Assembly (NCBI GenBank): GCA_051362555.1
Contig: CM120643.1
Location: 19,968,848 to 20,032,847, forward strand
Source: Lingula anatina
Taxonomy: Eukaryota; Animalia; Brachiopoda
Length of the DNA stretch: 64,000 bases
Direction: 5' to 3'
Shown here piece after piece: positions 33,701-39,700 of this stretch. The notes beneath the pieces were generated by a model, which worked only from the letters and a program-made list of their open reading frames with translations, did no database searches and was not told the DNA's origin. The position numbers were made by a program, and so were the translations under genes. How positions within the stretch are numbered: the first letter of the stretch is position 1; each line of letters begins with the position of its first letter.

Positions 33701-36700
33701 TTCCAAGCCATGAACTAAGAGCTTCACTTTGTTCTTTCCTTCAAAACACTCTGAACAAACTCCTTCAGGCGTCATGTTTGATCTTTTTGTGGTCACAGTT
33801 TCCAGTAAATTGTCACTCATCACCATCAGTAGCGCACAAAAATACAAAGCATCTTCTTGGTAACGTAGAAGTATGAGTTCAAGTTGGGGTTTTCATTTGA
33901 GTGGTCAGTGACACATGTCACCGCATGTTCATTATAACAGGAATAGTTTCTGTGACTTGATGTTTTACAAGAGTAAAGACAACCACACAGAGATTTTTGC
34001 TGCTACTGAGTTCTTTTATTATATACAGATATCTGCTCCCCTGTATCTCAGTCACTTTCTGCTGTGCCAGTATATGTCTGCTGTGTAGACTCTCTCTGCT
34101 CATACTGACTACTCAGAGGATTCAGGAGATTTTATACACAAAATTGGAAAGTCAGGAGAATGAATGCAGGCTCTCGTAGGACTGAGGAAATTACCTTTTT
34201 TTATTGAAAGAAATGGGTGCAGTTTAAAATACAGTTCGATTTGACAATGATATATTGCTGATCACGATCTTATATTTTTCTTGAACCCCCCTTTTTGCTT
34301 TGAAAATTAAGGTCCACTCTGAGTAAATTTGATGTTGTTTGATGTTGCCTGCTGGCTCCCTATTTGTCACTTAGAACTTGATGGTCAAGTAAGAGTGAAG
34401 TATCTGGTCTGGCAGTGAAAGATATTGTTTGTATGCTCATTAGCTCTCAGCATCTCATATGGAATCTGGACACGTATCTTCCTCAGAGAGGTGAGAACGT
34501 GGACTGCCATACAATGTGAATCAGGGCAAACCAGTTTGCCAGGCATATTGTAATCTAAAAAAACTGCACTGAGACATATTATAGTATGGTGTGGTATATA
34601 AGAAGCAGAGTTTACTTTTACACAACAGTGTTATGCAGCATACTTGTATAAAATGTATGGACATTAAATTTCTGTTCTGATTTCATGGAGCCATTGTAAG
34701 CTAGTGATTGCCTGAATGGTATCATTACCTTATTTTTGTTGATGATTCGAAATTAAAATTTAGCATAAGAAACCTGTAAAAATAGTCTTATTTAAAGAAG
34801 ATCACAAGACCGCCCAGTGCCATGTTAGTAAATATGCACTTTTCTTATTGACAATCTACTTCTTGGAAAACTAGAATGGGGATAGGTATGTAATTGCCAA
34901 GGAATGCAAAGAAGAAGTATCATTAAGCTTCATTTCCTCATGAAAATTGCTGTATAAGATACTGGGCGCACTCAAGTTAGGGTGCAATGGCATTTCTGGA
35001 TAGCTAGCTGGTTACTTGCTTGAAATGATACTATGTAGTACTTAATTGGTTCTGATGGAAAGATTGGCAACACAATGAGCAAAAATAGCAAAAAATTTAA
35101 TTTTCCTGGAAATTTCAACACTTCAAGTCATCATATGGAAAAATGTTCATGGAATTACCTTTCATAATTAACCTGCTTTTGAGTTGTAACTTTCTATATT
35201 TTGAGCATTCTCAGAATAAAAATATAGAGACTGGTGAATTTGACTTGTGGTTAATCAGGACTTGACGCTAACTTGAGTGTCCCTGGGCCAGCAAGCCACC
35301 TTTAATGTCGAGTCCTGCCAATCAGAAATTAAGAACTTGAAAATGGGCTTAAAAATCATAATCTTAAAATGGTTTTGGATACGGTACACTTGGTGATAAA
35401 AGGGAAATCCCAGTAATTTTCAGGATTTTTCCCCAATGTTATATATAAAGGTGTTATTGTTTGCTTTAAAAGAAAAGAAGTAGAGTCATCAATTTTTTTT
35501 ATAGTGAAATAGAGTAAATACGTCAGGGTGATTTCCATTTTTGTATACGGCACTGTTACACTGATTAAAGAAGGGTACCTTTCAAAAATCAGCATGATGG
35601 AATTATTTTTATAAAAGCACAAAATAATTTGTTTTATTAAACTTCAAAATGCTGAGTGACTTTATATGTTAATAAGGCTGGTTTCTTTCAAAAGTCAGCA
35701 TGATTGGATTATTTTTATGAAGGTTATTGACTGATTTTTTTCATGTATTTTGGCCATGTTTTCACCATATTCAAACACTATTTTTGCTTTACTTCAGATT
35801 TGCCAAATAGCTTCTAAATTAAATAAAAAAGGCAGGTTCTTTTAAAGAAATCAGCATGATCAATTTTTTACAATTATTATTGATTGTTTTGTAAATATTG
35901 CTTTGATAGTTGATAAAGTATATTATAATATATATTTTGAAACTTCAGGTAAGATAATTGGTACTTTGTTTCTTTATGTTGTTTCAGCATTGTTACAGCT
36001 TTTGGGATATTTTCCATCCAGATCAGATGATAAATGAGATTAATGTGCAGTCTCTAGGATTTAATGTTAGATTTCATAGAACTAGCTATAATTCAGCTAT
36101 GGAGTAAGTGAAATGACAGTTTATATCCATTTACATATTCTTATTTACATTTTTCATCAAACAGGAAATGTGTAATATTTAAAATCAAACCTGCGTAGAA
36201 CATGGAGAGAGAGACACTGACTTAAGTCATACAATGTATGCGATTAATGTTGAATAATGTTTTGGTGTAAAGGGGTTGTATAAAATCAATTAAAAACAAA
36301 ATATACCTGAATATACCAAAATTTTAATTAACCTTGATCTAGTGGAAAGAGCGTATCACAATACTGTTAAGTAACACAGCATCAGTTAATCAACTATTTC
36401 AAATTCAATTAATTTTTTTTCCAAACTATCTTGAGTTATTGTAGACTTCGCTACTGTTTTGAAGTTAAAAATAAGAATCTCTTTCACCTGTTTTGTCATT
36501 TGACCAGATTTGTTTTCCGTACTGTGTTTTTGTCTCTTCAGGCATATCAGATAGATCAGTCCCAAGTGCTTTGTTTATTCGAAGCACACCATATCTGTTA
36601 GGGTGTTTCAAATCGATGCAACCAATTGACTTAGAGCAATAGATAAATGTATCCATTTTAAACATTTGCCTCCTTAAACTATTGAGAAAGGCTCTCTTTC

Positions 36701-39700
36701 CGTAGCGAAGCACTTGTTTTGCTGATGTTTCTTTGAGTTCATTAATTGCACGGGTTGGAGGATCCAAATTGATACAGCCCATTGATGGTGAACAGTAGTG
36801 ATAGGAACGTTTCCCTGTTGGCTTCTGTGTTTCTGGGGCCAGTGCTGCCAGCTGCTCTTCTATCTTTGCCTGTTCATCCCACTGAGCCCGCTGAGGCACT
36901 TCTTTACCAAATCGTATTTTTGCTCCATTGCTTTTGACTGAGTCACTAGCTGGACGGACCACATCTATACAGCCAAGGCTTTGAGAGCAATAGGTGCGCC
37001 CCCTTTTTATTAGGATAGTGCTTTTGGGAAAACCTGTTGACTGATTGATTATTCCCTTGTCAAACCCTGGCTTCTGCTGGTCTTCATCTACTTGAATCGA
37101 TTCCATCAGTTTCTTCATTATGTATGGAGGGTTTTGTTGTAATGGATGCCTCTTGTTCTGAAACCAGCCTGGCTTGTAGTCTCTGTCAATGGTGGGCGTG
37201 TCCCCATTTGGATAGACTTGTCCATTGATGTACACACTAAGAACTGTACAAAGAAGAAGATGAAGCATAGATTTCCAATCTGAAATTGAAAGAAAATTAT
37301 GCTGAAGTTGATTCCACTGTGCTTTTTCCTATATACTTTTACAAAACTTGAAAATTAAGAAAATGTGAGCAACGATAATTATTTTCTAGAAAAGTGAAAA
37401 CATTTTAGAAGGTGCACGATGCTTTATTTATTTTGAACACTCTCTCTCTCTCTCTCTCTCTCTCTCTCTATCTCTCTCTCTCTCTCTGTGGATGCAATAA
37501 ACGGGGAATAATACAATATAAGCACGATTCATATTATTTAGGGGTTGAAATGACTTCTGCCAAAGTAGTTCATTTAATTTATTTATCAACTTATAATGAC
37601 ATCAGCAAAATCAAATCCATTATTGCTTGTTACCCATTTCTGATATAATCTAATAATATCAATGTTGATTCATAACTAACTTTTTGAGTTGGGCTGCTAA
37701 ATAACAAACCAACAAGAACAATTAAGGAAAAACATAACATCCTTGGCGAACATAACTATCTGGCTGTCCTTGTATGGCTTATATCGTGGAGACAATTTGT
37801 CATTTGAAACTGCTTACACTCTCCAGTGCCGTTCAAGTTTTTCAGTGCCTGGAACCGCTTGATATCAAGGAGTTAACTATTTTCACTTTCCTTCCTTTCT
37901 ACAGAGAAGGTTGATTACACCAGGAAGTGGCACCTAGAGACATTGGTAAATTCACCAGCAATTTCGGGAAAATTCACGCAGTGTCTTTGTTTGTAAACTG
38001 TAATATTCTTTATAATACTTTGTATAAAGTCTAAAGAGCTAAAGGAAGTTTGTTAATTAATCTGATTAAGAAGTTGGGTTCAAGAATCCTTTGTCTTGAT
38101 TTGATGTTAAAGAGTGGAATTCCCCACAGATTGTCAGAATGTACCTGAGCAAACAACGCATAAACATTAAATGATTGAAACTGGTTATTGTTGTCAGCGT
38201 TGGATTTCCTCACAGCAATTTACACTTAAATATTTGGAAAGTAGTAGTATCCTACTTAAAAGTATGCAACGGTGTCTGTATTTTGAACATATTTGTAATT
38301 TTTATTCATTGCTAAATTTGCGTAGTTCCAGAAAAACTGATAAAAACTAGAATTGCTATAGATATATATATATATACATTTAGATTTTGAAGAAAACATT
38401 TTAAGTTTAGGTTTGTGTTCATGATCTGTACTTAGCCTAGTAAATTAGTAGGTGAAATTTACATTTTCTGCTTATCATTAATGAGATGCTTGCAAACTGG
38501 ATTTCTAATAAGCTGCTGTAGCATGTCTAGGATTTGTATAGATATCCACTATTGTGATTCAGTCTTTTTTTTTCGAGAAAAAGGATGGCTGAAGTGGGAA
38601 TAAGTAGTTGGTTCTGGTTTAATTAAGGATGAGTTAAGTGGGTGGGTTAGGTAGACTTTATGTTATGTTGTGGGTGGGTCAGGTGGTTTAATGGGGTTAA
38701 GTGGGTTTAAAGGCAGGGTTAAGTGGGTGGGTCAGGTGGATTGATAGGTGAAGTGTGTTTAAAAGTGAGTTGAGCTTGATATAGCCATACTTATGTCATG
38801 TGAGTGTAAAGTATGAACTTATGACCATTAAATGTTAAGAGTTTGTAACATAGTCAATTAAAAGTAATTGGAGCGGATTCTAAGGAGTTGAAAAGTGTAA
38901 AAAAAAACATAAAATTTATGACTAGAAAAAAAGAGAAAAAGATGGCAGCACAAAACAAAACAAAGAAAAAAAAAACAGTTATTTAACTGTAGATGTGGTA
39001 AGTCACGAGAACCAGGGATAAGTTAATTGTTTGCTCTAAGCAGCTTTTATTCCCCACTCATGTCTGATTCACATATTCTTAACCCCAAATTGCCTTTGAT
39101 AATAGGATAGAATATCCTTATAATGTGGGTATAAACCTTTATGGGTGTTCACTTACCAACTTAATGGTACTTTTCCCGTTATAGTGCTACTGGGTGGTCA
39201 AATTACACAGTGTAATTATTAATCAATGAATGTTTAAAAGATGGCCTTGATATGATAGTCTTTGCAACCTAAGTTTAAGGCAGCATCTTCTTAGGTATAC
39301 TGAACAGATGTAATCACAAATATGCACAATTGCATTGAGAAAAATAAAAAGCAATAAATAATTATATTATTTTAATACGCAAATTAGCATTTAAAAAGGA
39401 GTGGCATTAAACAGTACTGTTATATTAATTTTAATGCACAAATAAGCATTGAGAGAAATTAATGAGGTAAATAGTTATATTAATTTAAATATACAAATTT
39501 CACATTTATAAACCAGATACATTCAGCTTACTTGTATGCTTCTGTAGGGATTGAAGGCAAGCCTCTCAGGCTGGTCCTCAGATTTATTTACTTTACTCTG
39601 GCAGTAACTAATTAATTTTCAAACCTATTTTCCACCCTCTAACTGTCTTAATGAAGTCCTTATACTTTGTATCTTTGTTTTTCTTAATTTCATTTTTTAG

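What the first reader, a model, noticed from the sequence alone, without database searches (positions are those of the whole stretch)
36465..37279. Unassigned neuropeptide/hormone-like precursor with three disulfide-ring, C-terminally amidated peptides
Seen: a 267-aa ORF with a signal-peptide-like N-terminus and three copies of Y-C-S-x-S-[LMI]-G-C-I-[DN]-[VL]-x-x-P. Standard prohormone processing rules (dibasic cleavage, Gly as amide donor) predict GRTYCSQSLGCIDVVRPASDSVKSNGAKIRF-amide (31 aa, KR..GK) and SYHYCSPSMGCINLDPPTRAINELKETSAKQVLRY-amide (35 aa, KR..GKR). A longer third copy (..FIYCSKSIGCIDLKHPNRYG..TQY-GK) follows RR. Inference: the ring resembles CCAP (F-C-x4-G-C) and calcitonin (C-x5-C). 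Length and aromatic amide resemble the calcitonin/CGRP/amylin group, while the C-terminus is RFamide/RYamide-like. I know no described family combining these, so it may be an undescribed peptide signalling system (neuroendocrine, pheromonal or defensive).
Basis: partly seen in the sequence, partly recalled or inferred. Interest (0 to 1): 0.88.

Follow-up and report, generated by a model that had tools for sequence, protein, structure and literature searches.

The report
Unlisted brachiopod ring-peptide hormone precursor
This is an active gene of the lamp shell Lingula whose protein is predicted to be cut into three ring-closed signalling peptides that fit no named family, and it is possibly the altered form of one of two nerve hormones that surveys could not find in lamp shells.

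Summary
The minus-strand ORF 36465-37268 belongs to Lingula anatina gene LOC106161142 ('uncharacterized'). RNA reads show it is transcribed and spliced to an upstream exon, giving a 273-aa protein. It has a hydrophobic N-terminus, dibasic sites and three Y-C-S-x-S-x-G-C-I-[DN]-[VL]-x-x-P units ending F/Y-G-K. AlphaFold models two units as beta-hairpins with the Cys pair across the turn. Four protein searches found no orthologue, and it is absent from the searchable supplements of two lophotrochozoan neuropeptide surveys. It is not calcitonin or NPF; Lingula has its own. Two families reported missing from brachiopods each fit in part. NKY-2 fits the start register, length and R[FY]amide end, but its Trp/Tyr pair is replaced by Cys. 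CCAP fits the ring and the three copies, but its Asn is missing and the tail is long. Each fails a defining feature, so I file it under neither. Odds: prohormone 0.9; NKY-2-derived 0.38, CCAP-derived 0.30, independent family 0.25, non-neural 0.07. Processing, amidation and receptor are untested.

The parts
40134..40422 (-). Main first exon (5' end not mapped; at least to 40422); carries ATG-ACA-G at 40140-40134
   Evidence: Reads of depth 21-28 at 40317 and 40422 and junction reads; sequence; matches RefSeq isoform X1 start
37280..40133 (-). Phase-1 GT-AG intron, 2854 nt
   Evidence: 12 reads in X1 and 10 in X2, ends CT..AC on + strand; loose ends of 13 and 16 reads in X1 and X3
55996..56060 (-). 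Alternative first exon (donor at 55996; 5' end not mapped); would leave the ATG at 37268 as start, the 267-aa form
   Evidence: 10 loose-end reads at 37279 in X3 map to 55996, followed by GTAAG; seen in 1 of the 4 runs
36465..37279 (-). Main coding exon, with the 267-aa ORF 37268-36465; no further intron seen
   Evidence: read depth 11-47 over 36505-37314 in X1 and X3, no joint listed inside; depth only 1-3 over 36370-36504
37221..37268 (-). Predicted signal-peptide core, likely cut after Gly16 of the 267-aa form
   Evidence: Hydropathy peak; cleavage site is inference, no predictor run
36909..37001 (-). Predicted peptide 1, 31 aa, ring 36992-36969, ends KIRF-amide; flanked by KR and G-K
   Evidence: hairpin model, pLDDT 81/78 over the first 20 residues
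36702..36806 (-). Predicted peptide 2, 35 aa, ring 36797-36774, ends VLRY-amide; flanked by KR and GKR
   Evidence: hairpin model, pLDDT 77/75 over the first 20 residues
36519..36668 (-). Predicted peptide 3, up to 50 aa, ring 36641-36618, ends TQY-amide; has internal single basic residues that may be cut
   Evidence: least like the other two outside the ring

Best explanation
The gene is transcribed and spliced in Lingula and encodes a likely secreted prohormone that is predicted to be cut at basic sites into three amidated peptides, each with a predicted disulfide-closed beta-hairpin at the front and an aromatic amide at the end, which likely signal through a G-protein-coupled receptor of the RF/RYamide (sNPF/NKY) type. 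The likeliest origin is the NKY-2 (IWMPxxGYxxVP) family. On this reading the peptide unit was triplicated, and the Trp and Tyr that stand six residues apart in the NKY-2 motif were replaced by a Cys pair in the same register; each swap needs one base change. The hairpin and the amidated end would be the receptor-facing parts, and the middle a variable linker. Shown: ORF, motifs, splicing, expression. Predicted: signal peptide, hairpin. Inferred: cleavage, amidation, disulfide, NKY-2 ancestry, receptor. The prohormone part alone I put at 0.9; the confidence given is for the whole statement including NKY-2 ancestry.
For: Prohormone; all 10 listed Atlas look-alikes are neuropeptide precursors. 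NKY-2 fit: the 8 nemertean NKY-2 precursors in PMC8557429's supplement give a peptide after KR with W-x-W-x-P-x-x-G-[YF]-x-x-V-P and a KLMRY-amide end, 34-40 aa in the five distinct peptides I counted by hand. The published consensus G[YF]WIWMPAQG (PMC6425005) extended by YxxVP (PMC5996578) scores best at residue 1 of peptides 1 and 2, the first residue after KR, and in the same ring register in peptide 3; shuffle p 0.17, 0.0145, 0.77. First Cys to amide is 27 and 31 residues, against 27-34 from the matching Trp in NKY-2 (hand count). Strands that extend beyond the ring on both sides account for the conserved I-[DN]-[VL] after the ring, which CCAP does not. NKY-2 was found only in nemerteans, and the list holds no Lingula NKY of either type. 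NKY peptides are conserved at both ends and variable in the middle (PMC4200219); here 0 of 14 amino-acid changes in divergent reads fall in the 49 ring and amide-end residues, while 3 fall in the middle of peptide 1 (p about 0.06).
Against: The NKY-2 signature itself is not met: no Trp, and Pro in only 1 of 3 copies. With my first, broader motif no copy was significant (p 0.35, 0.09, 0.90). The C-terminal match is generic: an sNPF motif scores as well (p 0.004 and 0.00035). All listed NKY-2 precursors hold one Cys-free peptide at their end. Peptide 3 lacks Arg before the aromatic amide and is 50 aa. The CCAP ring motif matches all three copies more strongly (p 0.00035 or less). All motifs were chosen after seeing the sequence, so the p values only describe. 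No orthologue was found to show an intermediate state. NKY activates the sNPF-type receptor only weakly (EC50 3.02 uM in oyster, 420 nM in Platynereis; 10.1101/712687), so the receptor named is uncertain even if the ancestry is right. The tissue of expression is unknown.
Confidence: 0.38

Rival explanations
1. It is the missing brachiopod CCAP: a three-copy CCAP precursor whose rings drifted from F-C-N to Y-C-S and gained long amidated tails, and which would activate the CCAP/NPS-type receptor.
For: Aromatic-C-x4-G-C in 3 of 3 copies; given a ring, aromatic-before and Gly-before occur together by chance in 0.3-0.7% per copy (the copies are not independent). Four of the six bona fide nemertean CCAP precursors listed have three rings, as do scallop, Aplysia and Lottia (PMC5996578). 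Ring spacing is similar: 65 and 52 residues here, 59 and 36 in Lineus ruber (hand count). The first copy in five of the six nemertean precursors ends in a short Tyr-amide extension. PMC8557429 reports CCAP receptors in brachiopods but CCAP precursors only in nemerteans; a Lingula receptor label stands beside NPS/CCAP labels in the scrambled tree text. PMC6660194 does not name brachiopods among the phyla with a CCAP ligand.
Against: All 16 rings in the six nemertean precursors have F-C-N; Lingula has Ser in 3 of 3. Those peptides are 11-14 aa; these are 31-50. Four or more residues precede the first Cys instead of two, unless Arg91 is cut. The conserved I-[DN]-[VL]-x-x-P and the R[FY]amide ends are unexplained.
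Confidence: 0.3
2. It is an independent, lingulid-specific neuropeptide family: one ring-plus-amide unit arose and was triplicated, and the likeness to CCAP and NKY-2 is convergence. It would act on one of the orphan lophotrochozoan receptors.
For: No relative in four searches, no Pfam family, no PDB sequence or fold match. A defining feature fails for every family tested. Lineage-specific precursors are common in these phyla, and orphan receptors expected to bind aromatic amides exist.
Against: The spacers change fast (14 non-synonymous of 23 listed codon differences), so old orthologues would escape search anyway. Partial fits to two families that are both missing from brachiopods lower the need for a new origin.
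Confidence: 0.25
3. The products are not neurohormones but secreted defence, antimicrobial or pheromone peptides processed by the same enzymes.
For: Amidated disulfide hairpins occur among defence peptides (own knowledge). Expression differs sharply among samples: present in 3 of 3 runs of one study, absent in the 1 run laid from another. Alternative first exons are how cone snails redirect neuropeptide genes to a gland (PMC13542836), and this gene has two first exons.
Against: The peptides are only mildly cationic. Expression is modest, about 12-17 reads per kb per million records. No second copy lies in the window. Atlas look-alikes are all neuropeptide precursors.
Confidence: 0.07

Closest known systems
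NKY-2 / IWMPxxGYxxVP neuropeptides (molluscs, annelids, nemerteans)
   Same: Peptide of about 35 aa directly after KR; Gly at the same place in the N-terminal motif followed by x-[VI]-x-[VL] and a Pro; variable middle; R[YF]-amide end in 2 of 3 copies; best motif register at residue 1 of peptides 1 and 2
   Different: Cys pair in place of Trp and Tyr; no W-x-W; three copies inside the precursor, not one at its end; third copy 50 aa without Arg-Tyr
CCAP (lophotrochozoan three-copy type; CCAP/NPS/NG-peptide system)
   Same: Signal peptide plus three KR-flanked aromatic-C-x4-G-C rings with amide donors; similar ring spacing
   Different: Ser for the Asn after the first Cys; 20-33 residues after the ring instead of 2-5; R[FY]amide ends
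Lophotrochozoan calcitonin
   Same: Multi-copy precursor of roughly 30-residue amidated peptides with an N-terminal disulfide
   Different: Lingula calcitonin rings are C-x9-C and C-x7-C and ends are Pro-amide; Lingula has a separate calcitonin gene
NPY/NPF and sNPF
   Same: R[FY]-amide end; NPF-like length
   Different: No R-x-R-F-amide, no intron in the Arg codon, not next to the signal peptide; Lingula NPFs are separate genes; the listed NPF peptides have no ring

Membership tests
Neuropeptide precursor (general) | Transcribed, spliced gene | tested here: met
   22 junction reads in X1 and X2; depth 11-47 in X1 and X3
Neuropeptide precursor (general) | Signal peptide | tested here: inconclusive
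   Hydropathy peak only; no SignalP available
Neuropeptide precursor (general) | Repeated units between basic sites with Gly amide donors | tested here: met
   one GKR and two monobasic GK ends
Neuropeptide precursor (general) | Mature amidated, disulfide-bonded peptides detected in tissue | not testable with these tools
   Needs mass spectrometry
NKY-2 | W-x-W-x-P-x-x-G-[YF]-x-x-V-P motif | tested here: not met
   Gly in 3 of 3, Pro in 1 of 3, Cys at the Trp and Tyr places; shuffle p 0.17, 0.0145, 0.77 and 0.35, 0.09, 0.90 with a broader motif
NKY-2 | 34-40 aa peptide ending K-L-[ML]-R-Y-amide | tested here: inconclusive
   35 aa VLRY and 31 aa KIRF fit loosely; 50 aa TQY does not; sNPF motif scores as well
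NKY-2 | Single Cys-free peptide at the precursor's C-terminus | tested here: not met
   Three Cys-ring copies here; 8 of 8 listed NKY-2 precursors are single-copy
NKY-2 | Orthology by synteny or gene structure; activation of the NKY/sNPF receptor | not testable with these tools
   No animal genomes held; no NKY gene-structure data in the passages read
CCAP | Aromatic-C-x4-G-C ring, amidated, 2-3 copies | tested here: met
   3 of 3 copies; family features
CCAP | Asn directly after the first Cys (F-C-N) | tested here: not met
   Ser in 3 of 3; Asn in 16 of 16 rings of six nemertean precursors (four Tubulanus rows set aside as apparent non-CCAP proteins)
CCAP | Short peptide, amide within a few residues of the ring | tested here: not met
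   31-50 aa here against 11-14 aa in nemerteans
CCAP | Activates the CCAP/NPS-type receptor | not testable with these tools
   Needs a receptor assay
Calcitonin (lophotrochozoan) | C-x7-C or C-x9-C ring and Pro-amide end | tested here: not met
   C-x5-C and Phe/Tyr-amide here; Lingula's calcitonin is another gene
NPY/NPF | R-x-R-[FY]-amide and an intron in the last Arg codon | tested here: not met
   KIRF, VLRY, TQY ends; no joint inside the coding exon; intron rule from PMC4200219 and PMC7314547

The most novel reading that the evidence does not exclude
Each peptide is a two-headed ligand: a CCAP-type disulfide ring at the front drives the brachiopod CCAP/NPS receptor, which has no known ligand, while the RF/RY-amide end drives an sNPF/NKY-type receptor. 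One precursor would then serve two ancient receptor lineages and account for both families reported missing from brachiopods.
Probability: 0.08. Interest if true: 0.85.

Novelty: new variant of a known kind. Interest (0 to 1): 0.5.

Why it matters
The main survey of brachiopod neuropeptides (PMC8557429) found a CCAP-type receptor but no CCAP precursor, found no NKY-2, and calls the true receptor of NKY an open question. This gene supplies two synthesizable candidate ligands, so one receptor panel can decide among the readings. If NKY-2-derived, it shows an aromatic cross-strand pair replaced by a disulfide, and implies that the NKY-2 N-terminal motif is a hairpin that matters for binding. If CCAP-derived, it shows that a bilaterian-wide ligand can lose its F-C-N signature and escape similarity searches, which would caution against other claimed losses. 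If neither, it is one more lineage-specific neuropeptide, a modest result.

Tried and rejected
Homologue searches found only the protein itself: whole protein, near lengths, 1 hit among 319 candidates; profile of the three units against longer proteins, 1 among 55; peptide region against shorter proteins, 0 among 11. phmmer over 1.84 billion representatives gave the protein plus 3 hits, which I rejected as tandem-repeat artefacts without signal peptide or cleavage sites. These collections hold few brachiopod proteins, so this is weak evidence of absence. Pfam: none at E up to 1 for the 267-aa form, one chance hit at E 2.9 for the 273-aa form. PDB sequences: 0. Foldseek on the peptide-2 model: no match at E 0.001. 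Atlas on residues 1-129, unnamed clusters only: generic precursors at 0.89, no NKY cluster shown. No indexed RNA holder was listed; raw-read runs were laid instead. A suspected splice donor near the 3' end of the ORF was not supported by any joint. A TATA-like element at 40209 is not the start for the reads seen, since they extend to 40422 or beyond. Earlier findings of this scan: none. Scallop LRYamide and oyster LXRY were considered; the oyster peptide is described as a 23-aa amidated peptide with no mention of Cys, but I did not see the sequences, so a link is not excluded. A vasopressin-type motif did not match (p 0.57-0.87). No receptor co-folding and no profile comparison with full NKY-2 or CCAP precursors was run, so the family comparison rests on short motifs and hand alignment.
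Full report
What is there. The reported ORF is real and lies on the minus strand at 36465-37268. The protein is, but for one residue, RefSeq XP_013393462.1, 'uncharacterized protein LOC106161142' of the brachiopod Lingula anatina; a 273-aa isoform X1 adds six residues in front. 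The window has RR at 199-200 where RefSeq has KR. All six Cys after the signal region form three aromatic-C-x4-G-C rings, each followed by I-[DN]-[VL]-x-x-P, and each unit ends in F/Y-G-K. Shuffles never gave two such rings in 200,000 tries, and units 1 and 2 align at E 4e-06. At DNA level the ring regions share 26-29 of 45 bases, so the duplications are old.

The gene is expressed. All three runs of study P1 cover the exon on the strand expected for a minus-strand transcript: mean depth 27.6 and 21.5 over 36513-37013 in X1 and X2, and 11-47 over 36505-37314 in X3, roughly 12-17 reads per kb per million records. X4 (study P2) has none. X7, X8 and X9 (study P3) have a few reads that differ from the window at many sites. 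A GT-AG intron 40133-37280 is crossed by 12 + 10 reads and joins ATG-ACA-G to the main exon, which gives isoform X1. A minor acceptor at 37243 (4 + 6 reads) stays in frame but removes most of the hydrophobic core. Ten reads in X3 come from another first exon ending at 55996. No splice leaves the 3' end, but depth over the last dozen codons is only 1-3. The tissues behind the runs are not known to me.

Constraint. The read differences listed touch 23 codons, 14 non-synonymous and 9 synonymous. One search's table left 61 rows unshown, three sites are differences in P1 runs, and P3 depth is 2-8 reads. None of the 14 falls in the 49 ring and amide-end residues (p about 0.06). Three fall in the middle of peptide 1, and R199K keeps the dibasic site. 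This is the pattern expected of a prohormone with fast spacers, but it is weak.

Structure. AlphaFold2 models peptide 1 (single sequence) with strands 3-8 and 12-17 and peptide 2 (three-row alignment) with strands 4-8 and 12-16. The Cys stand at 7 and 13, and pLDDT is 75-81 over the first 20 residues and lower beyond. So the ring is predicted to be the turn of a longer beta-hairpin. The disulfide itself is inferred.

Relatives. None was found (three repeat artefacts rejected). No Pfam family, PDB sequence or fold matches. The Atlas lists only neuropeptide precursors as look-alikes, at 0.85-0.90, with no family agreeing; this supports the class, not a family.

Is it in print? Exact peptide words were not found in the supplement of Thiel et al. 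2021, PMC8557429 (Lingula entries are present, 430 mentions). Nor were they in the six supplementary files of De Oliveira et al. 2019, PMC6425005 (file 3 was cut when stored). A full-text search for the accessions and two ring words returned 0 papers. The library lacks most subscription papers, and alignments shown as pictures are not searchable. What I saw: PMC8557429 abstract, sections 5, 6, 8 and 15, passages, and supplement parts 8, 9, 19, 31 and 98 of 387; PMC6660194 passages and the last part of section 5; passages only for PMC6425005, PMC5996578, PMC4200219, PMC7314547, PMC3890597, PMC8398477, PMC13542836 and 10.1101/712687. The supplements of PMC5996578 and PMC8398477, which hold the bivalve LRYamide/LXRY sequences, were not seen and may bear on family assignment.

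Comparison with known families. Calcitonin is ruled out: Lingula's own has C-x9-C and C-x7-C rings and Pro-amide ends. NPF is ruled out by the C-terminal motif, the missing intron and separate Lingula genes. Two families that Thiel et al. found only in nemerteans among the three phyla are left: CCAP and NKY-2. CCAP shares the ring and the three-copy layout, and brachiopods keep a CCAP-type receptor (a Lingula sequence is labelled beside NPS/CCAP receptors in scrambled tree text). But all 16 rings in six nemertean CCAP precursors have F-C-N and the peptides are 11-14 aa (I set aside four Tubulanus rows that lack the precursor layout). The Lingula rings have Y-C-S and long tails. NKY-2 shares the whole-peptide layout: start after KR, about 35 aa, a Gly-centred N-terminal motif, a variable middle and an R-Y-amide end. 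The published consensus aligns best at residue 1 of peptides 1 and 2, with the Cys pair at the Trp and Tyr positions six residues apart, each one base change away (codons). But the Trp signature is lost, only peptide 2 reaches p 0.0145, a broader motif gave nothing significant, and the C-terminal match is shared with sNPF. The CCAP motif gives smaller p values (0.00035 or less), but these mostly restate the Cys spacing. All motifs were chosen after seeing the sequence.

How it likely works. The precursor would enter the secretory pathway. Convertases would cut at KR, RR/KR and G-K sites, carboxypeptidase and the amidating enzymes would make Phe- or Tyr-amide ends, and each Cys pair would close a hairpin (established prohormone biology, applied by inference). 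Further cuts at single basic residues could free ring-only or short RY-amide products. I favour NKY-2 ancestry (0.38) because it accounts for both ends, the length and the conserved strand after the ring with one hypothesis. CCAP (0.30) accounts for four residues and the copy number but needs a lost Asn, a long insertion and a new amide motif. An independent family (0.25) and a non-neural role (0.07) remain. The margin is small. By the membership tests the gene belongs to neither family as defined.

Verdict. A real, expressed neuropeptide-type precursor that is not listed in the surveys I could search, with an unusual combination of a disulfide hairpin and an R[FY]-amide tail. It is a new variant of a known kind of system. 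Its value lies in giving direct candidate ligands for the CCAP-type receptor that has no known ligand in brachiopods and for the unsettled NKY receptor question.

Noticed in passing
window 46870-52240 (+), and 61479-61961 (+): Exons of a formin gene: an acidic, Pro-rich exon followed by three FH2-domain pieces (E 9e-07 to 9e-13); a PH-domain exon lies further on. The peptide gene's alternative first exon at 55996 makes that transcript run antisense across the formin exons.
   Followed up: partly
window 37243 (-): Minor in-frame splice acceptor (4 + 6 reads against 12 + 10 for the main one) that removes 12 codons including most of the hydrophobic signal core; it could give a non-secreted isoform.
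   Followed up: partly
window 36600-37220, runs X7-X9: Runs filed under the same species label carry a haplotype that differs at many sites (up to 10 differences per read), which suggests a distinct population or cryptic Lingula species.
   Followed up: partly
window 3327-8402 (-): Large open frame (1328 aa from ATG; 1691 aa stop to stop) with one weak C2H2 zinc-finger hit (E 0.01) and Lys/Gln/Thr repeats.
   Followed up: no
window 31968-32251, 42369-42406, 38183-38226: Short stretches with hundreds to thousands of partly matching RNA reads and many different flanks: interspersed repeats present in other transcripts.
   Followed up: no
PMC8557429 supplement, part 9: Four Tubulanus entries listed as CCAP have a C-x4-C motif right after Met and no precursor layout; from recall they look like THAP-domain proteins, so they may be mislabelled.
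   Followed up: no
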